From Candidatus Krakonobacterium acarorum (lineage in GTDB: Bacteria; Bacteroidota; Bacteroidia; SolTP2), in the NCBI GenBank assembly GCA_050311575.1, contig JBNOKO010000001.1:722239-786238 (forward strand): a DNA stretch of 64,000 nt, written 5' to 3'. How positions within the stretch are numbered: the first letter of the stretch is position 1; each line of letters opens with the position of its first letter. The notes beneath the pieces were generated by a model. That model ran no database searches and had not been told where the DNA came from. It was given only the letters and a program-made list of their open reading frames with translations. This document shows, piece after piece, positions 1-50,473 of this stretch. The position numbers were made by a program, and so were the translations under genes.

Positions 1-485
1 GTTCAGGTTTGCTATGGACCGCTAAAGAAGGTTTGTTGCCGGAAACTTTAGCTAAAACCAATAAAAATGGTGTTCCAAAAAACATTCTTTTAATACAGGC
101 AGTTATAGTTACAATTTTATCGTCTTTATATTTTGTTATAGATAATGTTAGTGTGGCTTTCTTCTTGCTATCTGCTTTAACCATAGGCCTTTATTTGATT
201 ATGTATATGCTTATGTACCTTGCAGGTATTAAGCTAAGATATACACAGCCTGATTTACCACGTTCCTACAAAGTACCTGGAGGTAAAAAAGGCATGATAA
301 TAATTGCAGGTATTGGTCTTGTATCAGTAATATTTTCATTTATAGTTAGTTTTTTCCCTCCGTCTCAATTACCAATAGGCAGTGTTAGTTTATATGTAAC
401 ATTAGTTGCTTTAGGAAATATAATATTTGTAGCTTTACCATTTATAATTGTTAAAACTAACCAAACATCTAAAAACTCTAACTAA
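1..485 (+). CDS. APC-superfamily amino acid permease, C-terminal fragment (5' end lies outside the window)
   Basis: Reading frame is open from the window edge (first Met at 9 is internal). Hydrophobic TM segments (ILLIQAVIVTILSSLYFV; IIIAGIGLVSVIFSFIVSFF) and a short hydrophilic tail are typical of APC transporters. Stop at 483-485. Confidence 0.6.
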   Translation, partial: SGLLWTAKEGLLPETLAKTNKNGVPKNILLIQAVIVTILSSLYFVIDNVSVAFFLLSALTIGLYLIMYMLMYLAGIKLRYTQPDLPRSYKVPGGKKGMIIIAGIGLVSVIFSFIVSFFPPSQLPIGSVSLYVTLVALGNIIFVALPFIIVKTNQTSKNSN

Positions 486-496
486 ATAACAATACG

Positions 497-1813
497 ATGG
501 TAAAAAATATTTATAAAAAATTCTTTGTTGTAGTATTATTTTTACTAACTGCTTATAACAGCAATGTATATTCTCAGGATTTGGATAAAACTAATAAGGA
601 TGACCCTTTTGTCGATAGGTTCGATAAACGTTTAGATATATTACAAATAGAGGAAGATAAAAACAAAGAGGCCATTAGACATTTGCTTGAGGAGTTGCAA
701 GATCTTAATGGCCCAAATGATAATCCTAAAAAAGAAAATTATACTAATCCTATAGAATTAAACATTGCAAATACTAAACTTACTATAGGCGGTTTTGTAC
801 AGTCAGATTTTATATACGATTTTAACGTATCTAGTATGGGAGGTTCTTTTATACCTTCATCTATCCCTATTAAATCGCTCTTAGATCCTAAATTAACTTT
901 TAGTTACTTACAAAGTAGATTTACATTAACATCCCAGTCAAATACAAGTATAGGGATATTGAAAACTTTATTTGAATATGACTTATTTAGTGATGGTATG
1001 TCTCCTGGGTTCCACGTGCGTCATGCTTGGGGTGAGCTTGGTAGCTTTGGTGTAGGTCAATATTGGTCGGCATTTATGGATATAGATGTATTCCCTAATA
1101 TACTTGATTATCAGGGGCCTAATGCTATGGTATTTGTAAGACAGGTGCAATTGAGATACACCCATAAGATTGGTAAGAATTTTAAAATAGCTTTGAGTAT
1201 AGAGAAGCCATATAGCGGTGTTCAGCAAGCTGCAGAATACCAAAATAAAAGTCTTGTCCCTGATTTTGCTCTACATTTGCGTTATGCAGGTACAAGGGGA
1301 CATATGCAACTTGCCGGTATATTACACTCAGTTAGATATCAGAATAATAGCACGAAAATTAATAGTACGGGCTGGGGACTTAATTTAACAGGATTATACA
1401 ATATAGGTACTGAATTAAATGATAGTATTATGTTTCAGGCTACCTATGGTAATGGTATAGCTCGTTATTTTAATGATATATCCGGTTTAAATTATGATGG
1501 TTTTATTAATAAACCTAATGATAAGATTGAGCTTGATTTATTGCCGGTATGGTCTATCATGGCTTTTTATAATCATAGTTGGAGCTCTAAATTTAGCAGT
1601 GCTTTAGGCTGGGGTTATTTAAATTTGGAGAATAATAAACTACAAATGGATAACGCATTTAACAATAGTCATTATGGTGTAGCAAACATTATATACTATC
1701 CAATAGATCCTATAAAAGTGGGTTTAGAATACTTATATGGAATGTTAATGGATAAACATAAAGATAGCAGCACTAATAATAGATTGCAGCTGTCAATTAT
1801 GTACAAGTTTTAG
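497..1813 (+). CDS. outer-membrane beta-barrel protein, porin-like, with N-terminal coiled-coil segment
   Basis: Sec signal peptide (FFVVVLFLLTAYNSNVYSQ), a charged coiled-coil-like stretch (LEELQDLN), alternating aromatic/polar beta-strand pattern and a C-terminal Phe (..SIMYKF). Sits 11 bp downstream of the permease gene. Confidence 0.55.
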   Translation: MVKNIYKKFFVVVLFLLTAYNSNVYSQDLDKTNKDDPFVDRFDKRLDILQIEEDKNKEAIRHLLEELQDLNGPNDNPKKENYTNPIELNIANTKLTIGGFVQSDFIYDFNVSSMGGSFIPSSIPIKSLLDPKLTFSYLQSRFTLTSQSNTSIGILKTLFEYDLFSDGMSPGFHVRHAWGELGSFGVGQYWSAFMDIDVFPNILDYQGPNAMVFVRQVQLRYTHKIGKNFKIALSIEKPYSGVQQAAEYQNKSLVPDFALHLRYAGTRGHMQLAGILHSVRYQNNSTKINSTGWGLNLTGLYNIGTELNDSIMFQATYGNGIARYFNDISGLNYDGFINKPNDKIELDLLPVWSIMAFYNHSWSSKFSSALGWGYLNLENNKLQMDNAFNNSHYGVANIIYYPIDPIKVGLEYLYGMLMDKHKDSSTNNRLQLSIMYKF

Positions 1814-1867
1814 TAGTTTTATAATAGTATCACCTAAGTAATAAAAATTTAATTATAAAAAAATTAC

Positions 1868-2893
1868 ATGAAAAAAACTAATAATAGCTTAAAGTTTAAG
1901 GCCTTGGCTATAGGAATTTTATTTATATGTGTAAATGTTTCCTTAAAAGCGCAGTTTAAATATCCTAGCGAAGCAGAAATAAAACTTGCGATGCAAGAAG
2001 CTCATGGAGATTTTCAATATATTAATGAAGGTCGCAATGCCGATTATATACCTTACTTAAGTAGCGTAGATGCGAATCTATATGGTATAGCAGTGGCTAC
2101 TGTTGATGGTAAAATATACGAGATAGGGGATACTAAATATGAATTTGGCATAGAATCTATTTCTAAAGTATTTGTTTTAGCAAAAGCTTTGCAGGAAAGG
2201 GGGTCTAAGGTAATAGAAGAAAAAATTGGAGTAAATGCAACAGGATTTCCTTTTAATAGTATTTTACCTATAGAATTAGAAGGTAAAAAGGCTATTAGCC
2301 CATTAGTGAACGCTGGAGCTATGGCAACCAATAGTTTGATAAAAGGTAGTAGTAAGGAGGATCAATTTAATAAAATTAATGCTTTTATTGACCAATTAGC
2401 AGGTAGAAAAATAAGGGTTATTAATATTTTATATCAATCAGAAGCGGCTACAAACTCTCATAACAGAGCTATAGCTTGGTTGCTGTCATCTTACAACGGC
2501 CTTGAAGGGGATCCGGAACAAGCCCTTGATTCATATACAAGACAATGTTCATGGGGTGTAACTGCTACTGATTTAGCTGTTATGTCAGCTACACTTGCTA
2601 ATAAAGGGATACAACCTATAACGAAAAAACGTGTTATAGACGAGCAATATGTACCTAAAGTACTAGCTAGTATGGTAACAGAAGGTTTGTATGAAAAATC
2701 AGGAGAATGGTTGTATAATGTTGGAGTTCCTGCAAAAAGTGGAGTAGGCGGTGGCGTAATTGCAGTAATACCTGGTGTTATGGCAATTTCAGCGTTTGCA
2801 CCACCATTAGATGAAGCTGGCAATAGTGTAAAAGCTCAGAAGGCAATAGCGCATATAGTTAATAAATTAGGGTTAAATATGTTTAACAGATAA
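1868..2893 (+). CDS. glsA: glutaminase A (GlsA family) with N-terminal signal peptide
   Basis: Catalytic Ser-x-x-Lys block (ESISKVF), GVGGGV near the C-terminus and ~310 aa length match the glutaminase family. The hydrophobic N-terminus (LAIGILFICVNVSLKAQ) predicts export. Confidence 0.85.
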   Translation: MKKTNNSLKFKALAIGILFICVNVSLKAQFKYPSEAEIKLAMQEAHGDFQYINEGRNADYIPYLSSVDANLYGIAVATVDGKIYEIGDTKYEFGIESISKVFVLAKALQERGSKVIEEKIGVNATGFPFNSILPIELEGKKAISPLVNAGAMATNSLIKGSSKEDQFNKINAFIDQLAGRKIRVINILYQSEAATNSHNRAIAWLLSSYNGLEGDPEQALDSYTRQCSWGVTATDLAVMSATLANKGIQPITKKRVIDEQYVPKVLASMVTEGLYEKSGEWLYNVGVPAKSGVGGGVIAVIPGVMAISAFAPPLDEAGNSVKAQKAIAHIVNKLGLNMFNR

Positions 2894-2920
2894 AATATCA
2901 ATTATAGCAAAAAATAAAAA

Positions 2921-2966
2921 ATGGATTTTAGAATTAATTAATTCTAAAATCCATTTTTTATTTTAA
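2921..2966. terminator. perfect inverted repeat (atggattttagaatt / aattctaaaatccat) flanked by an A-run and a T-run; probable bidirectional rho-independent terminator
   Basis: 15 bp perfect stem centred on the palindromic ttaattaa, followed by ttttttatttt. Immediately downstream of the glsA stop. Confidence 0.6.
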
Positions 2967-3003
2967 TTAATAATAACTTTGGTTGATATTAATTAAAGTT
3001 ATT

Positions 3004-4134
3004 ATGGCTAGAAAAAGTAAATCTAAAAGGTTTCCTCGTAAATATTGCACTATAGATTTTTTACTATGTATAGAGTATAATTACAAAGGTCAAGGTATAG
3101 TAATATGAAACGATAAACCTTTTTATGTAAATGGCTTAATTATTGGAGAGAGTGCGCGTATAATAGTTTTTGCCGAATTCCCAGACTATGGTGAAGCTAG
3201 AGCGATAATGCTTTTAAAACCATCTGTTGATAGAAAACTGCCTTTAGACCATCCTAAGTTAGAATTAGGAGTTTATCATATAGCACATTTAACTGATCAG
3301 GCTCAGGATGCATTCAAACAAAATCGAGCTTATTCTTTGTTTGGATCCATTACTAAATCTATTATTGTTGGTGATCGTACCTACTACCGTAATAAGGTTG
3401 TATTAACTGATGGCGGATTCAAGCCACCAGGTTGGAAGCGTAAATTATCTATTATACCTACTAAAGAACAGTTTGATTTAATGGACATAGACTTTTCTAA
3501 ATACTCCGTAGAAAAAGGTGATACAATAATCAGGCGTCTAGATTATGAAATATCTGGTAAACCGGGCGAAGAAAAATATGTAACCGATACATTTTTAAAT
3601 AAAATTTATCGCGTTAATCTTAACTCGTTTTACCAAGTAAATACCAATATGGCAAAAAAGGTTTATAAAGCTATAAAAACTTTTATAACACCTAATACTA
3701 TAGTATTTGATTTATTTGCAGGAGCAGCTACCATAGGCATATTTGTATCGGATATAGTTAATAAGGTCTATTCTATAGAAATTAATACGGAATCTATTAA
3801 GGATGCTTTAGAAAACAAAAGAATCAATAAAGCTAATAATGTAGAGATTATAAAGGCCGATGCTAATTTGTGGCTTGTAGAAAATGGGGATATTTTACAA
3901 GTACATACTATAATTTTAGATCCAGCTCGCAGCGGTATATCTCCACAGTCAGCTGGTATAATAAACCTATCGCAAGCAAAAAGGATTATTTATTTATCAT
4001 GTAACATTGATACTCAAAAACGCGATATCGATTTATTAACATCTTATGAAGTTGTACACGTGCAACCATATGATTTTTTTCCGCAAACTTATCATATAGA
4101 AAACTTAGTTGTACTAGATAAAAAACCTATATAA
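3004..4134 (+). pseudogene. rlmD/rumA-like 23S rRNA (uracil-C5)-methyltransferase interrupted by one in-frame TGA at 3106-3108
   Basis: ATG at 3004 is in the same frame as the 3208 ORF. The upstream segment translates to MARKSKSKRFPRKYCTIDFLLCIEYNYKGQGIVI*NDKPFYVNGLIIGESARIIVFAEF.., which aligns to the TRAM N-terminus of E. coli RlmD (..[29 protein letters not shown]..), recalled from memory. A single stop codon separates it from the rest of the gene. Confidence 0.45.
3208..4134 (+). CDS. RNA (uracil-C5)-methyltransferase, TrmA/RlmD family (TRAM-less product if initiated at Met 3208)
   Basis: SAM motif I (DLFAGAATIG), FYQVN block, DPARSG (the DPPR-like motif) and catalytic Cys motif YLSCNxxTxxRD. 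Confidence 0.55.
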   Translation: MLLKPSVDRKLPLDHPKLELGVYHIAHLTDQAQDAFKQNRAYSLFGSITKSIIVGDRTYYRNKVVLTDGGFKPPGWKRKLSIIPTKEQFDLMDIDFSKYSVEKGDTIIRRLDYEISGKPGEEKYVTDTFLNKIYRVNLNSFYQVNTNMAKKVYKAIKTFITPNTIVFDLFAGAATIGIFVSDIVNKVYSIEINTESIKDALENKRINKANNVEIIKADANLWLVENGDILQVHTIILDPARSGISPQSAGIINLSQAKRIIYLSCNIDTQKRDIDLLTSYEVVHVQPYDFFPQTYHIENLVVLDKKPI

Positions 4135-6237: not shown

Positions 6238-6993
6238 CTATATTAATATTTTATTGATCCCTAATATATATTGATTAATATAGTTTTTAATAAATTTTTC
6301 GTTAATATATTTTATGCCATTGATATTATTTTTTAATACTTCTGTCTCTAAATTATATTTTAAAAAATCGCTCAACATATTTTTAGAAAGTGGCATATAA
6401 CTAAAATGCCATGGTTCATAATTAAATCCGGTACGATTAATATCTTTAGTATAAACTTCGTAGAACCCAAATTTTGCTGAATTTTTGTTTAGCCACGATT
6501 TTAAAGGATAAAATATTCCACTTTGTGTAAAATACTTTTCTTGTAAAGGATCGTGTTTAGAAAAATATTTGTTATCTACATTACCTTGTATTATGTCTAA
6601 GTCGCTTCCCCAATGGTGTCTGGATGTTCCTGGTAAAGTAGAATATTTAATAATTTCCTTAATGGCATCTTCATGACCGTACCCCTTAGCGATATATCGA
6701 TTAAATTTGTTGTTCCATATTTTTACCTGATGGTTATAATCTCTAAATGAAGAAACTACTTTTATTAATATTCCATCTTTTTTTGCGTAATCTTGCATTT
6801 TCTCAAAAGCTCCAGCTGCATCTTTATGCAATGTATAACCATTGCCGCTGACTAAATTCTTGGGTTTAATCCCCATTAACTCATCTAAAGTGTATGTGAG
6901 TTTGAGATTAAAAGAACTATTAGTTAAAAAAGTAAAATATGCCAGACCAGAAGAGATAAATTCTCTTCTGGAGATTGTTTTGAGTTTTCGCAT
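6238..6993 (-). CDS. peptidase M15 (VanY-like D-alanyl-D-alanine carboxypeptidase) with twin-arginine signal
   Basis: Tat-like N-terminus (SRREFISSGLAYFTFL). Zinc-ligand motifs SRHHWGSDLD (S-x-H-x-x-G-x-D) and EPWHFSY match the M15 family. Confidence 0.7.
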   Translation of the reverse strand: MRKLKTISRREFISSGLAYFTFLTNSSFNLKLTYTLDELMGIKPKNLVSGNGYTLHKDAAGAFEKMQDYAKKDGILIKVVSSFRDYNHQVKIWNNKFNRYIAKGYGHEDAIKEIIKYSTLPGTSRHHWGSDLDIIQGNVDNKYFSKHDPLQEKYFTQSGIFYPLKSWLNKNSAKFGFYEVYTKDINRTGFNYEPWHFSYMPLSKNMLSDFLKYNLETEVLKNNINGIKYINEKFIKNYINQYILGINKILI

Positions 6994-7105
6994 GGTTTAA
7001 TTGTATAATTAATATATAAAAATACAATTAATTATGGCATTAATCTTGATTTGTAAATATTTACTATAAAGACATAAATTAAACAAAAAGAAATTTAATA
7101 TTCAT

Positions 7106-7921
7106 ATGTACAAGTATAATTTAAAAACAGCACTATTTGTGTTATGTTTAATATATATAATTTTTGCTTACAATATAAATGTTTATAGTTTTGGCATTGA
7201 CAATAACGACTCTGGCGTTGCTAATGTAAAGACCGTATATATTACTTCCGATGATGGCCCATGGTCTGGTACAGAAAATATTATTAAAGTTGCAACTGCA
7301 ACAAAAACGCCAATAAGTTTATTTTTTATAGGCTATAGATATTACAAGGCAAACGATAATTTAAAGCAAGTAGTTCAACAACTCAAAGATAATCCGTATA
7401 TACAGATTTGTAATCATAGTTATTCACATGCCTGGGGCAGATACGGTAAATTTTATCATACCGATAAACTTGCCTACGAAGATTTTAAAAAAAATACTCA
7501 GGAATTAGGTATCAGTAACGCTTCTCCTATTCACAGCAGATTCCCTGCACGAAATGTTTTTAGACTTCCTAATTTGAGAAAAAACGATGATTATGTAACG
7601 AAGCATTGCAAAAATCCTAAGCAAGAAGAAGCTATTTATGATGAAGTATACGATAATGGAAAATACTATGTGTATGGCTGGGATGTCTATTGGGACTTTA
7701 ATAATAAAGGAAAACCTTTACTAACGCCTAAAGAAATAGTAAGCAGAATTAATAAAAAATTTAAAGAAAACACTACTGTTATGCCGAATAAGTGTATACT
7801 AATAATGCATGATGTAATGTTTATGGATAAATTTAGCGGCAAAGAAAATTTAACTAATCTTATAGCCTTATTAAAAAAAGAAGGGTATAGGCTGGATTTT
7901 ATAAAGAATTATATAAATTAA
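7106..7921 (+). CDS. polysaccharide deacetylase (NodB / CE4 family), secreted
   Basis: Signal peptide. NodB motif 1 (TSDDGPWSG) and the His-His motif (NHSYSHAW). Confidence 0.6.
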   Translation: MYKYNLKTALFVLCLIYIIFAYNINVYSFGIDNNDSGVANVKTVYITSDDGPWSGTENIIKVATATKTPISLFFIGYRYYKANDNLKQVVQQLKDNPYIQICNHSYSHAWGRYGKFYHTDKLAYEDFKKNTQELGISNASPIHSRFPARNVFRLPNLRKNDDYVTKHCKNPKQEEAIYDEVYDNGKYYVYGWDVYWDFNNKGKPLLTPKEIVSRINKKFKENTTVMPNKCILIMHDVMFMDKFSGKENLTNLIALLKKEGYRLDFIKNYIN

Positions 7922-8666: not shown

Positions 8667-9455
8667 GATAAAATTTTAACGGTTATTAATATACTAAGAT
8701 AGCTATTTTATATAATTCAACATTTCGGAAGTTTTTGTTTTCAAAAAAACTAATTCTTCATTTCGTTTTCAGCAGCTTTTTTAAGCTATTCAACTACTGA
8801 ATTATTTTAAGTTAATGTCCTCATTTAAAGTTCAATTCCCACACCTTTATATTTTTCTACCAAGTCACTAATTTTTTGAAAAACACTTTGTTTTTGTCAA
8901 ATATTGTGGATTTAACGGGCTAATTTTAGGCAAAATAGCATTTAAATAAAGATTGCTACTATAGGAAAAATATTTCAAAAACGTATAAGTAGTTTGAAAT
9001 CTATACAAAAAGGGGGATTGCTTGTTTGATATTATATCAATGATTCTCGGTTGGTGGAATATTTGTAGTACTGTTATAATAATTTATTTTAAACTTTATT
9101 ATTTCTAATAAACGCATAGGCTATAAAATAAGAGGGCGGGAAATTCGAATAAGTCAATTAGCAGTTAGGGGAATTTTGAACCCTTAATCACTTTTTTAAA
9201 GACCGATCGAAACGATTATTAAAAATAGTCCAAATGACAAATTAATTATAGTTCCGAAAATGTCAAGTCTCAAATGAAGGTTGCTTTTAAATATTCGCAA
9301 GGAAAAACAATTTGGTAAGATAAGCCAAATTACAAAATACTGAACCTAAATAACCCCTGGCAAACTTATATATTACTATAATTTTTCAGCTAATACTGAA
9401 AAGAAATTACAGTCTGACCATAATCTTAAAAGGTAAGTTCCCAAAGTAATTTATT

Positions 9456-9504
9456 ATCTAATCCTATAGATTTGGCGTTGGAAGGCAAATCTATAGGATT
9501 AGAT
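9456..9504. repeat. perfect 19 bp inverted repeat (atctaatcctatagatttg ... caaatctataggattagat) with an 11 nt loop
   Basis: Read directly from the sequence. Lies within a 1.24 kb ORF-free region and is not followed by a T-tract. Confidence 0.8.
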
Positions 9505-12500: not shown

Positions 12501-13409
12501 TTAGTGTATATGACCAGGGTAGTTTCCTTTAGTGATTAAAGACATTATTTGTTTTTTTAATAAAGCTTTGTCCTCTTTATAGGTTACACCATACCATTGA
12601 TCTGGAGTACAGTTAACCTGGACATTTATTAGTTTGTTTTGTAACAATTCATTAATTGTTTGAGGAATATAAAATTCATCTTTTTGTAGATCAGTATTTT
12701 TGTTATCTAAAAATTGTTTTAGCGAATTTTCAAATAAAGGGAAGATAGTAGGATTAAATCCCCATAGGTTCATAGAAACTATTGCGTTATTATCAATCGT
12801 TTCTTCTGTGTTGTTTCTTAGGTCTTTGGATGTTATTGTATTATTTATACGTTTTATATCTAATTTTTCTTCAATTTTAATCAAATTATTATCTTCATCT
12901 ACTTGGCAAAGTCCTCTTGATACGCTGCCGTTATCAGATAGGGTATTTTCTATATTATACCCTATCATAAAATATTTAGAAGTAGAATTATCCGAATTTA
13001 TAATATTATTATAAATTATTTTATAGGAATCTAATCCATAAAAATCATCAGCATTAATTATGCAAAATGGGTTGTTTACAATACCATCAAGCAAAGTTAT
13101 TATATGTCCCGTACCCCATGGCTTTTCTCTATCAAATGGTTTTATGCCGAAATTAGTAGTATTCAGGGGACCTTGCTCTATACATCTAAAGGTTACATGG
13201 CTAAAAGTTTTTTTTGATTGCAATTTTGAAAGATGGTCTTTAATGTTTTTGTTAACTATTAGTACTATATCATTAAATCCAGCTTTTATTGCATCATAAA
13301 TAGAGTACTCGAGTAAAAATTCATTGTTTGGGCCAATGCCGTCTATTTGTTTGAAAGAACCATATCTACTGCCTATTCCTGCAGCCATTACTACTAAACT
13401 ATATGTCAT
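12501..13409 (-). CDS. nucleotidyltransferase family protein (sugar-phosphate nucleotidyltransferase-like)
   Basis: N-terminal LVVMAAGIGSRYG matches the GxGxR(L) signature of NTP-transferase folds. The substrate cannot be assigned. Confidence 0.5.
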   Translation of the reverse strand: MTYSLVVMAAGIGSRYGSFKQIDGIGPNNEFLLEYSIYDAIKAGFNDIVLIVNKNIKDHLSKLQSKKTFSHVTFRCIEQGPLNTTNFGIKPFDREKPWGTGHIITLLDGIVNNPFCIINADDFYGLDSYKIIYNNIINSDNSTSKYFMIGYNIENTLSDNGSVSRGLCQVDEDNNLIKIEEKLDIKRINNTITSKDLRNNTEETIDNNAIVSMNLWGFNPTIFPLFENSLKQFLDNKNTDLQKDEFYIPQTINELLQNKLINVQVNCTPDQWYGVTYKEDKALLKKQIMSLITKGNYPGHIH

Positions 13410-45266: not shown

Positions 45267-46244
45267 TTATTTATCTAAAACCCACAAAGTTGCGTTGGTT
45301 AGTATATTGCTGACTTCATTAATATTAACTGGTTCTGCATGCACCTCGTAAAGTTCCTGACCTGGTTCATAATTAGGATAAGCAGTTGTGATATCTGCAT
45401 AGCTTGTTAATTGCTTAATATAAGTAATAGTTCCATCTATAGTAGTCTTAGCATTATAAGATGTTTTTAATTTTATAATGTCTTTAATATGCCATTTGTT
45501 AATTTTTGATGCAGGTGCAGTAAATCTAAAATAAATTTTATTTGGAAGATAACCAGTAAAAATGCCATACCCGGGCAGAGCCAATTCACCTGCTTGCAAA
45601 GCGATACTTTCTATACTGAAATTATCCGGGGCAATGATAAATCGTTCGTTTTTTGCTGCCAAAGCTTCTTTTAAGGCGCCATGAGCTCTATTAAGCTGTC
45701 CTAATGCCATAGTTTTTTCTTCGGAGCGTACTCCTCCGGTTTTAACATATTTAAGTTGTGCATTAACGGCGTCAAATTGCGCTTTAGCGCCTTGATATTT
45801 TGCATATACTTCGTCGTATTGTTGTGCAGGTATAAGGTTTTCATTGAACATAGCTTTTACTCTATTGAGAGATTTTTTAGCAAAATCAAACTGAGCTTTA
45901 ATCCCCCTGTATTTTGCTTGTAATTGATCTAGATCGGACGAGGTTGCTCCTTTTTTTGCCATATTATACTGTGCCTGTGCAGCTTCAACAGCACCTTGAG
46001 CTTGCAATATTTTAGCATCGATTTCAGGTGTGCTAATTTCAGCTAAAGTATCTCCTTTCTGAACCACGTCCGATTCTTTTACAAGTATATTTACAATGCG
46101 GCCCGGGATTTTGGATGCTATAGTAATAGTGTCTCTTTTAAGTTTAGCTTCTATTAAATTTTCTTTATTATTTTGCTTCTTGCAGCTAATTCCGAACAAT
46201 ACATATAAATGTAGAATTACTACCAACAGAGTTTTATATTTCAT
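45267..46244 (-). CDS. HlyD-family periplasmic adaptor (membrane fusion protein)
   Basis: N-terminal anchor, a long coiled-coil hairpin (AQGAVEAAQAQYNMAKK...AKYQGAKAQFDAVNAQL) and a beta-barrel C-terminus. Overlaps the tolC-like gene by 4 bp. Confidence 0.7.
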   Translation of the reverse strand: MKYKTLLVVILHLYVLFGISCKKQNNKENLIEAKLKRDTITIASKIPGRIVNILVKESDVVQKGDTLAEISTPEIDAKILQAQGAVEAAQAQYNMAKKGATSSDLDQLQAKYRGIKAQFDFAKKSLNRVKAMFNENLIPAQQYDEVYAKYQGAKAQFDAVNAQLKYVKTGGVRSEEKTMALGQLNRAHGALKEALAAKNERFIIAPDNFSIESIALQAGELALPGYGIFTGYLPNKIYFRFTAPASKINKWHIKDIIKLKTSYNAKTTIDGTITYIKQLTSYADITTAYPNYEPGQELYEVHAEPVNINEVSNILTNATLWVLDK

Positions 46245-49546: not shown

Positions 49547-50473
49547 ATGTTAGAAGCAAAACATCTTATAGGAATAAAATATTTAAGCCCACAAGATATT
49601 TATACAATTTTTAAACAAGCTGATATTTTTAAGGAAGTTTTACAAAGGCCAATAAAAAAAATACCTTCGTTAAAACACATAACAATCGCTAACTTATTTT
49701 TCGAAAATTCTACTCGCACCAGAGTATCATTTGAGTTGGCGCAAAAGCGCTTGTCTGCCGATATTATTAACTTTAATGGATCAGCATCATCCCTAAGTAA
49801 AGGCGAAACCTTACTAGATACAGTCAAAAATATATTGGCAATGAAAGTGGATATGTTGGTAATAAGAAATAAATTTGAAGGTACATGCGAATTAGTCTCT
49901 AAATATACCAATGCTATTGTAATTAACGCTGGCGATGGCGCAAACGAACACCCTACGCAAGGGTTATTAGACGCTTATTCATTGATACAACATTTAGGCG
50001 ATTTAAAATCTAAACGTATTGCGATAATAGGAGATATTCTACACTCTCGGGTAGCCATGTCTTCCATATATTGTTTAAAGAAACTTGGAGCCGAAATTAC
50101 ATTGTGTGCCCCTAGCACTTTGATACCTGAAAATATAGAACAACTAGGCGTAAATATAACATATAACATAGAAGAAGCTATTAGATGGTGCGATGCTGCA
50201 AATGTTTTACGAATTCAAAATGAAAGATTCCAAAGTCGATATTTTCCTTCGCTTAGAGAATACACTATGGCATTTTGTTTGAATCAGAATCTACTAAAAA
50301 AAGTAAAAAAGCAAATAATTATAATGCATCCTGGACCTATTAATAGAGGCGTTGAAATCACTAGTGAAGTAGCTGACTCCAACGATTCTATAATATTACA
50401 ACAAGTAGAAAATGGGGTAGCCATACGTATGGCGATAATATATCTTTTAGCACAAAATAAAATTAATAAATGA
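49547..50473 (+). CDS. pyrB: aspartate carbamoyltransferase catalytic subunit
   Basis: STRTRVSFE carbamoyl-phosphate motif and the HPGP/HPLP region. Ends with TGA in an ATGA overlap with folD. Confidence 0.9.
   Translation: MLEAKHLIGIKYLSPQDIYTIFKQADIFKEVLQRPIKKIPSLKHITIANLFFENSTRTRVSFELAQKRLSADIINFNGSASSLSKGETLLDTVKNILAMKVDMLVIRNKFEGTCELVSKYTNAIVINAGDGANEHPTQGLLDAYSLIQHLGDLKSKRIAIIGDILHSRVAMSSIYCLKKLGAEITLCAPSTLIPENIEQLGVNITYNIEEAIRWCDAANVLRIQNERFQSRYFPSLREYTMAFCLNQNLLKKVKKQIIIMHPGPINRGVEITSEVADSNDSIILQQVENGVAIRMAIIYLLAQNKINK

What the first reader, a model, noticed from the sequence alone, without database searches (positions are those of the whole stretch)
3004..4134. rlmD-like rRNA m5U methyltransferase gene split by a single in-frame TGA
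The 101 bp upstream of the 3208 ORF, in the same frame from ATG 3004, encode ..YKGQGIVI, and after a TGA at 3106-3108 continue NDKPFYVNGLIIGESARIIVFAEF... Together these align with the TRAM-domain N-terminus of RlmD. Downstream, the catalytic SCN, DPARSG and FYQVN motifs are intact. The interruption is either a very recent nonsense mutation, a sequencing error, or a site of stop-codon readthrough or reinitiation yielding a TRAM-less enzyme starting at Met 3208. TGA is a genuine stop elsewhere (pyrB ends on TGA in an ATGA overlap with folD), which argues against code reassignment.
Basis: partly seen in the sequence, partly recalled or inferred. Interest (0 to 1): 0.55.

Follow-up and report, generated by a model that had tools for sequence, protein, structure and literature searches.

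The report
Mycoplasma-type rRNA methylase gene with stop
A mite-gut Bacteroidota bacterium carries an rRNA methyltransferase gene that came from mycoplasma-like bacteria; it is cut by one TGA stop at the exact codon where mycoplasma versions use TGA to mean tryptophan, so the gene is probably switched off or barely working.

Summary
ATG 3004 to TAA 4134 is one 376-codon frame broken only by TGA 3106-3108. This is the only in-frame TGA in about 17,900 codons of the window. It is identical in four assemblies, so it is not a sequencing error.

The host is Ca. Krakonobacterium acarorum, a Bacteroidota gut symbiont of mites. It uses the standard code: TGA ends 3 of 49 genes, and RF2 is present and looks intact.

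The gene is not a Bacteroidota rlmD. It is a TRAM-plus-catalytic-domain m5U methyltransferase of the mollicute type. It is 59-62% identical to genes that sit in conserved synteny on UGA=Trp mollicute contigs, and it nests inside that clade.

The stop falls in an aromatic column (F/Y/W). Six of 54 homologues have Trp there, and all three whose DNA I read encode it as TGA.

Codon usage is fully host-like, and the N-terminal 68 codons are as conserved as in intact genes. Both point to an old transfer that stayed functional for a long time.

Best reading: a Trp codon that is now TGA, most likely a recent TGG>TGA change. An unrepaired donor codon is not excluded. The result is a young pseudogene or hypomorph. 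It is a curiosity, not a new kind of system.

The parts
2914..2961 (+). Terminator-like hairpin after the upstream glutaminase gene (1868-2893). It implies the methyltransferase gene has its own promoter within 2962-3003.
   Evidence: a 20-bp stem followed by a T run, with 6 terminator-like sites against 0.6 expected. Glutaminase A is identified.
2974..2981 (+). TAACTTTG, a match to the Bacteroidota -7 promoter consensus TAnnTTTG, 23-30 nt upstream of ATG 3004. This is only a weak hint.
   Evidence: the motif is not enriched in the window overall (102 matches against 104 expected). It occurs within 100 nt upstream of 7 of 50 genes, against about 4 expected.
3004..3105 (+). Codons 1-34: the family-typical basic N-terminus (M-x-R-K...RFPxxYC...C) and the first TRAM strand. 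ATG 3004 aligns with the start of the 370-374-aa homologues.
   Evidence: Mean identity to core homologues is 0.52, within the range of intact mollicute genes.
3106..3108 (+). In-frame TGA (codon 35), in a loop between TRAM strands 31-33 and 40-43. The homologous column is F 23, Y 19, W 6, I 4, H 2. Where it is W and the DNA was read, the codon is TGA.
3109..3207 (+). Codons 36-68: the rest of the TRAM-like beta-barrel. There is no ATG, GTG or TTG in frame before 3208.
   Evidence: strands 40-43, 50-58, 63-70. Identity to homologues is 0.51.
3208..4134 (+). The 308-aa ORF annotated by NCBI (P0001). It starts at internal Met69, in the last TRAM strand, and covers the central and catalytic domains. 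It contains SAM motif I DLFAGAATIG (3709-3738), motif IV DPARSG (3919-3936), nucleophile Cys333 (4000-4002) and general-base Glu366 (4099-4101).

Best explanation
The locus is a single gene for a TRAM-containing, SAM-dependent 23S rRNA m5U methyltransferase. It is of the type kept by Hominis-group mollicutes, where it is called RlmD and is responsible for m5U1939. An ancestor of the Bacteroidota mite symbiont Ca. Krakonobacterium acarorum acquired it from a UGA=Trp mollicute.

The gene has lived in this standard-code host long enough for its synonymous codons to become fully host-like. Over that time its whole protein sequence, including the N-terminal TRAM part, stayed under normal constraint. 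Codon 35 was a tryptophan codon. It now reads TGA, and this host, which has RF2, treats TGA as a stop.

The most likely history is a sense codon (TGG) during the functional period, followed by a recent G>A change to TGA that became fixed in the species. Ribosomes starting at ATG 3004 now mostly release a 34-residue peptide. At most a trace of full-length enzyme with Trp35 would come from near-cognate reading of UGA by tRNA-Trp. A TRAM-less product from Met69 is possible but unsupported. In effect the gene is a young pseudogene or a strong hypomorph of a dispensable rRNA-modification enzyme.

Shown: the gene family and fold, the mollicute origin, the host code, the Trp or TGA state of the column in orthologues, host-like codon usage, and the fixed status of the TGA. 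Inferred: the order of events (TGG then TGA) and the present loss of function.
For: Family and fold. PF05958 at E 7e-18 and TIGR00479 at 1.7e-43. The family profile hits S. pneumoniae RlmCD in two stretches, TRAM plus central at E 3.5e-14 and catalytic at E 2.4e-50. The AF2 model has pLDDT 92.5, and the top Foldseek hits are RlmCD and RumA at TMq 0.78-0.85.

Mollicute origin. All full-length homologues are 370-374 aa, and the ones with names are Mycoplasmataceae, Mycoplasmatales or Mollicutes. The six contigs I examined use code 4: TGA:TGG is 48:15, 51:6, 25:17 and 24:2 on the four counted, none of those four has a TGA stop, and the methyltransferase genes on the other two carry in-frame TGAs at Trp columns. 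Several share the synteny S1-PGI-FtsH-DUF2779-MT-GT2-RDD-UvrD. The window protein nests inside this clade. Bacteroidota RlmD proteins match only the C-terminal half, at 35-40% identity.

Host identity and code. The window is 100% identical over 14 kb to JBNOKP, the SOL genome (PMC12323627). Porin and TolC-like genes are in the window. There are 0 in-frame TGAs in 17,868 codons and 3 TGA stops. RF2 is annotated, is 65-66% identical to Solitalea and Anseongella RF2, and has an intact GGQ.

Trp codon. W occurs in 6 of 54 homologues at this column, and it is TGA in 3 of the 3 read.

Old, functional residence. The codon-usage log-likelihood ratio is 0.162 per codon. Host genes give 0.166 +/- 0.058 and mollicute genes give -0.134 +/- 0.029. 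The result is the same against six different mollicute references, and the N-terminal 67 codons alone give 0.206. The ratio of N-terminal to C-terminal conservation is 0.87, against 0.73-0.90 in intact mollicute genes.

Dispensability. rlmD is non-essential in M. bovis and is a pseudogene in some M. hyorhinis strains (PMC7226160).
Against: The TGA sits exactly where mollicute orthologues have TGA=Trp. One of them is Mycoplasma sp. ATU-Cv-703, which branches next to the window sequence. A codon inherited unchanged explains this more simply than loss and regain of TGA. My rough count gives only about a 5% chance that a new nonsense mutation in this gene would fall on this Trp codon.

The gene has no second lesion and no polymorphism among strains, so I could not show relaxed selection. 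Nothing here measures expression, readthrough or rRNA methylation.
Confidence: 0.45

Rival explanations
1. Fossil codon. The TGA is the donor's own UGA=Trp codon, carried across the genetic-code boundary and never converted to TGG. The gene has kept working, or was tolerated, through low-level Trp-inserting readthrough of UGA or through a very low requirement for the enzyme.
For: The same column is TGA=Trp in all three W-bearing mollicute orthologues whose DNA was read. These include the lineage branching next to the window sequence, with context GIV-x-TGA-AAY. The column is one of only 8 of 372 with 3 or more Trp. A donor like L086 (TGA at codon 35, TGG at the conserved DANxW Trp) would deliver a gene with exactly one TGA, which is what is observed. 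Conservation of the N-terminus across the stop is what selection on a readthrough product would produce.
Against: Synonymous sites have turned over completely to host usage. In that time a single A>G change to TGG would have arisen repeatedly and should have been favoured. RF2 is present and looks intact. No stimulatory structure follows the stop (z = +0.97). TGA followed by A is not a notably leaky context; that last point is general knowledge and was not tested here.
Confidence: 0.3
2. TRAM-less enzyme. Whatever the origin of the stop, the functional product is the 308-aa protein started at Met69 (3208), as annotated by NCBI. It would lack the TRAM domain, like E. coli RlmC and TrmA, which have none.
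For: The ORF 3208-4134 is intact with all catalytic motifs. TRAM-less members of this superfamily are active enzymes: RlmC has no TRAM domain (PMC6235398), and an Acholeplasma paralogue group has lost TRAM (PMC7226160).
Against: Met69 is an ancestral internal residue lying in the last TRAM strand, not a new start. The column is Lys in 22 of 54 homologues and Met in 5. No homologue starts there. If this were the long-term product, codons 1-68 should have decayed, yet they are as conserved as in intact genes. The terminator at 2914-2961 places the promoter upstream of ATG 3004, so 3208 lies 200 nt inside the mRNA.
Confidence: 0.12
3. Recent, dead-on-arrival transfer. The gene arrived very recently from an unsampled mite-associated mollicute whose codon usage happens to resemble the host's. 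The TGA is simply an unexpressed relic.
For: The TGA column matches mollicute TGA=Trp codons. The gene is known from only this one Bacteroidota species.
Against: Six mollicute relatives spanning the family all have clearly different codon usage, for example ATT far more frequent than ATA, whereas the window gene has 26 ATA to 15 ATT. The nearest sampled relative is only 62% identical. Two of the three Trp codons are TGG, while the low-GC relatives use mostly TGA.
Confidence: 0.06
4. Artefact or different decoding. This covers a sequencing or assembly error, host-wide UGA=Trp reassignment, or selenocysteine insertion.
For: None beyond the bare presence of an in-frame TGA.
Against: The sequence is identical in four assemblies, including strains that differ elsewhere. 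There are 115 TGG and 0 other in-frame TGA in 17,868 codons, TGA ends 3 genes, and RF2 is present. No hairpin follows the TGA, and no homologue has Cys at this column.
Confidence: 0.02

Closest known systems
RlmD of Hominis-group mollicutes (SAM-dependent 23S rRNA m5U1939 methyltransferase; Sirand-Pugnet et al. 2020, PMC7226160)
   Same: They belong to the same protein family: 45-62% identity over the full length, the same length of about 373 aa, and the same N-terminal MxRRKK..RFPxxYC...C tail, TRAM, short central domain and catalytic domain. Like that gene, it is dispensable and prone to pseudogenisation.
   Different: It sits in a Bacteroidota genome, outside the mollicute synteny block. 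It has host codon usage. It carries a codon, TGA, that is sense in the source lineage but stop in its current host.
Streptococcus pneumoniae RlmCD (PDB 5XJ1, 5ZQ0) and Bacillus subtilis YefA
   Same: It is the best solved-structure match by sequence profile and by fold. It shares the three-domain TRAM-central-catalytic layout, and neither carries the RumA Fe-S cysteines in the aligned region.
   Different: The window protein is about 80 residues shorter, with a reduced central domain, and identity is only about 21-22%. Dual U747 and U1939 specificity is not expected: the literature reports no U747 methylation in mollicutes.
E. coli RlmD (RumA), PDB 1UWV and 2BH2
   Same: The fold matches (TMq 0.82-0.85), as do the catalytic Cys and Glu and the TRAM domain.
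   Different: Four-cysteine [4Fe-4S] site of RumA has no counterpart here. The score against TIGR00479 is 149 bits, below the 183.55-bit cut-off, so this is not an RlmD equivalog by NCBI's rule.
Nonsense-interrupted genes in genome-reducing symbionts; mollicute genes that fail in standard-code hosts because of UGA
   Same: A single premature stop interrupts an otherwise intact, dispensable gene of a 1.3-Mb symbiont. It shows the well-known incompatibility of UGA=Trp genes with RF2-bearing hosts.
   Different: Here the two themes coincide at one codon. I did not find a described natural case of this in the held literature. One targeted search returned six papers; I read only one of them, for another purpose, so this is not an exhaustive search.

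Membership tests
RumA/RlmD-RlmCD-TrmA superfamily (COG2265) of SAM-dependent RNA m5U methyltransferases | C-terminal class I methyltransferase domain matching the U5-methyltransferase profile | tested here: met
   PF05958 at E 7.3e-18, 65 bits against a cut-off of 23. The profile matches the RlmCD catalytic domain at E 2.4e-50.
RumA/RlmD-RlmCD-TrmA superfamily (COG2265) of SAM-dependent RNA m5U methyltransferases | Catalytic nucleophile Cys (SCN..T) and general-base Glu (H-x-E), plus SAM motifs I and IV | tested here: met
   Cys333, Glu366, DLFAGAATIG and DPARSG are all present. Cys333 and Glu366 are invariant across 28 aligned homologues.
RlmD/RlmCD subfamily (TRAM-containing rRNA enzymes) | N-terminal TRAM beta-barrel | tested here: met
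   It is met only if the frame is read through the TGA. The profile aligns to RlmCD residues 7-131 at E 3.5e-14. The AF2 strands are 31-33, 40-43, 50-58 and 63-70. Pfam TRAM itself does not reach threshold on this sequence.
RlmD equivalog (NCBIfam TIGR00479 / E. coli RumA type) | Score above the curated cut-off, and the [4Fe-4S] cysteine cluster | tested here: not met
   The score is 149.1 bits against a cut-off of 183.55. The only cysteines are C15, C22 and C333.
Mollicute (Hominis-group type) RlmD | Full-length similarity, and placement inside the mollicute clade | tested here: met
   It is 45-62% identical over 96-99% of its length. It nests within the clade in NJ trees: sister to P0002-P0006 in 54 of 100 bootstraps, with P0036 next.
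Mollicute (Hominis-group type) RlmD | Methylates U1939 of 23S rRNA | not testable with these tools
   The activity is known only for mollicute members, from mass spectrometry in PMC7226160.
Pseudogene by premature stop | An in-frame stop relative to intact full-length homologues, in a host that reads that codon as stop | tested here: met
Loss of function itself was not tested.
UGA=Trp genetic code (table 4) in the host | In-frame TGA at conserved Trp positions across many genes, no TGA stops, and no RF2 | tested here: not met
   There are 0 in-frame TGAs in 17,868 codons and 115 TGG. Three genes end in TGA. RF2 is present with GGQ.
Selenoprotein gene | A SECIS hairpin just downstream of the UGA, with Cys in homologues at that position | tested here: not met
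   The fold of 3095-3185 is no more stable than its shuffles (z = +0.97). The column is F/Y/W/I/H and never Cys.

The most novel reading that the evidence does not exclude
The TGA is a genuine fossil of the donor's genetic code: a UGA=Trp codon that crossed from a code-4 mollicute into a standard-code Bacteroidota genome. It would have persisted through complete amelioration of the gene, with function sustained by Trp-inserting near-cognate readthrough that restores the donor's own amino acid. If so, leaky UGA decoding can bridge a genetic-code barrier to horizontal transfer.
Probability: 0.25. Interest if true: 0.65.

Novelty: new member of a known kind. Interest (0 to 1): 0.4.

Why it matters
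The locus documents a cross-phylum transfer of an rRNA-modification gene from UGA=Trp mollicutes into a standard-code Bacteroidota gut symbiont. Within the held literature I did not find this described. Its one lesion sits exactly at a codon that the source lineage writes as TGA.

If the TGA is a later mutation, this is ordinary gene decay in a shrinking genome. In that case the public annotation, a 308-aa protein starting at Met69, should be treated as a truncated gene.

If the TGA is original, it would be a natural example of how a gene survives a change of genetic code. It would also give a concrete, testable construct (AUA-UGA-AAC) for measuring UGA leakiness in Bacteroidota.

Tried and rejected
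- **Sequencing error:** rejected, because four assemblies are identical.
- **Host code reassignment:** rejected.
- **Selenocysteine or a structured readthrough signal:** no hairpin downstream.
- **Natural start at Met69:** rejected by the homologue alignment.
- **Alternative in-frame start between 3109 and 3207:** none among ATG, GTG or TTG. The ATG overlapping the stop (3105-3107, ATGA) opens only a 3-codon frame.
- **Bacteroidota-type promoter as evidence of host adaptation:** TAACTTTG is present at 2974-2981, but the motif is not enriched in the window overall and only weakly so upstream of genes. I treat it as a hint only.
- **Closer relatives or an intact allele:**
  - The genome-contig scan returned only distant matches, the best being a Mycoplasmatales MAG at 36% identity.
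  - The metagenome-contig scan returned one distant hit.
  - No second Bacteroidota copy appeared among 70 homologues.
- **Strain polymorphism as a test of selection:** there are no differences inside the gene among the four assemblies, so this was uninformative.
- **Expression data:** the stored supplement of PMC12323627 is cut before this locus, and the SRA run identities could not be traced.
- **Impaired RF2 as a reason for leaky UGA:** the motif is SPY instead of SPF, but a free-living Solitalea sp. has the same, so it is not a symbiont-specific defect.
- **GC content:** the gene's GC3 is 0.204, against 0.241 +/- 0.026 for host genes, which is not discriminating.
Full report
**1. The observation.** Positions 3004-4134 on the + strand form one reading frame of 376 codons. 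It begins MARKSKSKRFPRKYCTIDFLLCIEYNYKGQGIVI, is interrupted once by TGA at 3106-3108, and continues NDKPFYVNGLIIGESARIIVFAEF... to TAA at 4132-4134.
- The mechanical ORF list shows only the 308-aa piece, starting at ATG 3208.
- I read every long frame with TGA as sense. This is the only real gene in the 64 kb with an internal TGA.
- The 49 genes I took as the gene set hold 17,868 codons, with 115 TGG and no in-frame TGA. They end in TAA 36 times, TAG 10 times and TGA 3 times.
The carbamoyltransferase gene 49547-50473 ends on TGA in an ATGA overlap with FolD.

**2. Not an artefact.** The 308-aa protein is found on four contigs.
- The region around the stop is identical in the window, in GCA_050311595.1 (JBNOKP010000002.1) and in two Logan assemblies of separate SRA runs.
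- The JBNOKP contig is 100% identical to the window over 14,134 bases.
- One Logan contig differs by a single base and the other by 18 substitutions and 3 indels over 7 kb. None of these differences lies inside the gene.
- The TGA is therefore fixed in strains that have diverged by up to about 0.6% locally.

**3. The host and its code.** NCBI names the protein as from the 'Solitalea-like symbiont of Tyrophagus putrescentiae'.
- JBNOKP and the single 1,312,108-bp contig JBNOKO are the genomes described as Candidatus Krakonobacterium acarorum. It is a Bacteroidota gut symbiont of stored-product mites, 1.2-1.6 Mb and 31.6-32.7% GC, with three genomes at 99.3-99.9% ANI (PMC12323627).
- The window fits a diderm: a DcaP/porin protein, a TolC-like outer-membrane factor and VanY.
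- The supplement of that paper lists prfA and prfB.
- The RF2 sequence given there is 65-66% identical to RF2 of Anseongella and Solitalea and has an intact GGQ. Its SPY motif, in place of SPF, is shared with a free-living Solitalea sp..
- The host therefore reads TGA as stop.

**4. What the gene is.**
- Pfam finds the U5-methyltransferase domain. NCBIfam's RlmD model matches at 149 bits, below its 183.55-bit cut-off.
- A profile of the homologues hits S. pneumoniae RlmCD in two stretches: residues 7-131 (TRAM plus the start of the central domain, E 3.5e-14) and residues 262-450 (catalytic domain, E 2.4e-50).
- The AlphaFold2 model of the joined protein is confident (pLDDT 92.5, pTM 0.89). Its best structural matches are RlmCD and E. 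coli RumA, at TM 0.78-0.85.
- Codon 35 lies between the first two modelled TRAM strands. Met69 lies in the last TRAM strand (63-70), so the annotated 308-aa product would lack the TRAM domain entirely.

**5. Where the gene came from.**
- All 54 full-length homologues are 361-388 aa (most 370-374) and cover 93-99% of the joined sequence, including the part upstream of the stop. Their start aligns with ATG 3004.
- The ones with names are Mycoplasmataceae, Mycoplasmatales, Mycoplasma sp. ATU-Cv-703 and a Mollicutes MAG.
- I fetched six of their contigs. On each one the methyltransferase gene does not translate under table 11 because it contains TGA at Trp positions.
- On four of the contigs I counted codons. 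In-frame TGA:TGG is 48:15, 51:6, 25:17 and 24:2, and no gene ends in TGA.
- Four contigs share the gene order S1 - PGI - FtsH - (DUF2779) - methyltransferase, and three of them continue with GT2 - RDD - UvrD. In the window the gene lies between a glutaminase gene and a DUF2254 gene.
- In neighbour-joining trees the window protein nests inside the mollicute sequences. It is sister to P0002-P0006 in 54 of 100 bootstraps, with Mycoplasma sp. ATU-Cv-703 as the next branch, and its branch length is ordinary.
- Bacteroidota RlmD-type genes match only the C-terminal 170-200 residues, at 35-40% identity.
- The literature places this enzyme in Hominis-group mollicutes as RlmD, responsible for m5U1939. 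It is non-essential in M. bovis and a pseudogene in some M. hyorhinis strains (PMC7226160; also PMC4014445).
- The direction of transfer is therefore from a mollicute into the symbiont lineage.

**6. The stop sits on a tryptophan codon.**
- At the alignment column of the TGA, the 54 homologues have F 23, Y 19, W 6, I 4 and H 2.
- I read the DNA of three W-bearing homologues, and all three write that Trp as TGA:
  - ATT GTC AAG TGA AAC GGC (Mycoplasma sp. ATU-Cv-703)
  - ATT GTT TTG TGA AAT GAC
  - CTT GTT GAA TGA AAC AAT
  - For comparison, the window reads ATA GTA ATA TGA AAC GAT.
- Only 24 of 372 columns have any Trp, and only 8 have three or more. The coincidence is therefore unlikely by chance, roughly 2-6%.
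- Of the sense codons one step from TGA, only Trp belongs to the residues this column accepts. Codon 35 was almost certainly Trp.
- The other two Trp codons of the window gene are TGG. One of them is the conserved DANxW Trp, which is TGA in three low-GC relatives and TGG in ATU-Cv-703.

**7. How long the gene has been in this host.**
- The log-likelihood ratio of synonymous codon choice (host against mollicute) is 0.162 per codon for this gene. Leave-one-out values are 0.166 +/- 0.058 for the 49 host genes and -0.134 +/- 0.029 for mollicute genes.
- The result holds against each of six mollicute references separately. It also holds for the N-terminal 67 codons alone: 0.206, against 0.125 +/- 0.077 for host chunks of the same size and -0.099 +/- 0.061 for mollicute chunks.
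- As an example, Ile is ATA 26 and ATT 15 in the window gene. In the relatives' copies ATT dominates, from 16 ATT to 2 ATA up to 32 ATT to 2 ATA; the least skewed copy has 25 ATT to 11 ATA.
- Protein conservation of residues 1-68 relative to 69-376 is 0.87, at the upper end of the 0.73-0.90 range seen in intact mollicute genes.
- So synonymous sites have been rewritten in the host while the whole protein, on both sides of the stop, stayed under family-typical constraint.
- This is what an old, functional acquisition looks like. It is hard to reconcile with an N-terminus that has been untranslated since the transfer.

**8. Mechanism and alternatives.** Two histories fit a Trp codon that now reads TGA.

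The first history is the one I rank highest, at about 0.45.
- After transfer the codon was, or became, TGG.
- The enzyme then worked for a long time.
- A recent G>A transition, the commonest route to a stop in an AT-biased genome, produced TGA, and that change became fixed.
- rlmD is dispensable, and the host genome is shrinking.

The second history, at about 0.3, is that the TGA is the donor's own codon and was never repaired.
- The position evidence in paragraph 6 favours this.
- A donor like ATU-Cv-703 would have delivered a gene with exactly this one TGA.
- On the other hand, over the time needed to rewrite the synonymous sites, a single A>G repair should have arisen and been favoured. RF2 is intact, and no structure follows the stop.

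Under both histories the present outcome is the same. Translation from ATG 3004 ends after 34 residues. Any full-length protein must come from near-cognate reading of UGA by tRNA-Trp, which would restore the ancestral residue.

A TRAM-less enzyme started at Met69 is conceivable, because RlmC and TrmA have no TRAM domain. However, nothing marks 3208 as a start, and the conserved N-terminus argues against it as the long-term product. A recent transfer from a donor with host-like codon usage, sequencing error, code reassignment and selenocysteine are all unlikely or excluded.

**9. Comparison with what is known, and novelty.**
- The gene is a member of the mollicute RlmD group within the RumA/RlmCD/TrmA superfamily.
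- It fails NCBI's RlmD equivalog cut-off and lacks the RumA Fe-S cysteines.
- A premature stop in a dispensable gene of a reduced symbiont is a known kind of event. So is the failure of UGA=Trp genes in standard-code hosts.
- What is unusual is that both themes meet at one codon of a cross-phylum xenologue.
- I rate it a new member of a known kind, with moderate interest (0.4). The fossil-codon reading would be more interesting (0.65) at a probability of about 0.25.

**10. Limits.**
- I could not scan the rest of the symbiont genome for a native rlmD, for tRNA-Trp, or for other mollicute-derived genes.
- I could not read the metatranscriptome, and I could not find a diverged relative carrying the gene.
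- The trees are distance-based, with modest support for the exact sister group.
- The ordering of events (TGG before TGA) is an inference, not an observation.

Noticed in passing
window 50470-50473, 46241-46244 (minus strand), 13406-13409 (minus strand): All three TGA stop codons among the 49 window genes lie in 4-nt ATGA overlaps with the start of the next gene. The pairs are carbamoyltransferase/FolD, TolC-like/HlyD-like, and two unannotated ORFs. TGA is never used as a free-standing stop in these 64 kb.
   Followed up: partly
window 7911, with SNP clusters at 6781-7510 and 9120-9502; L002 (Logan SRR25400109): One strain carries a 22-bp insertion 10 nt before the stop of the polysaccharide deacetylase gene 7106-7921, which would change its C-terminus. 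Its substitutions relative to the window are clustered rather than evenly spread.
   Followed up: no
outside the window: RF2 of the same genome (LOCUS_03610 in the supplement of PMC12323627); P0071-P0075: The symbiont's RF2 has SPY instead of the canonical SPF stop-recognition tripeptide. A free-living Solitalea sp. MAG has the same (P0072, P0074), while other Sphingobacteriales have SPF. GGQ is intact. The annotated CDS (308 aa) lacks the part upstream of the usual programmed frameshift.
   Followed up: partly
window 9-2893, and L001 4369-9686: Just upstream of the methyltransferase gene lies a pyridoxal-dependent decarboxylase, an amino-acid permease, a DcaP-type porin and glutaminase A. Together they resemble a glutamine/glutamate-dependent acid-resistance module, which would be plausible for a gut symbiont.
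   Followed up: no
L084, L085, L086, L087 (mollicute contigs): The mollicute rlmD homologues sit in a conserved block: S1-domain protein, PGI, FtsH, DUF2779, rlmD, GT2 glycosyltransferase, RDD protein, UvrD/PcrA. The family has a conserved basic N-terminal tail with two cysteines (RFPxxYC......C) ahead of the TRAM barrel. RlmCD and RumA do not show this tail in the alignment.
   Followed up: no
window 3105-3108: The stop is embedded in ATGA, the same overlap motif used between coupled genes in this genome. However, the ATG at 3105 opens only ATG AAA CGA TAA, so it offers no productive reinitiation.
   Followed up: yes
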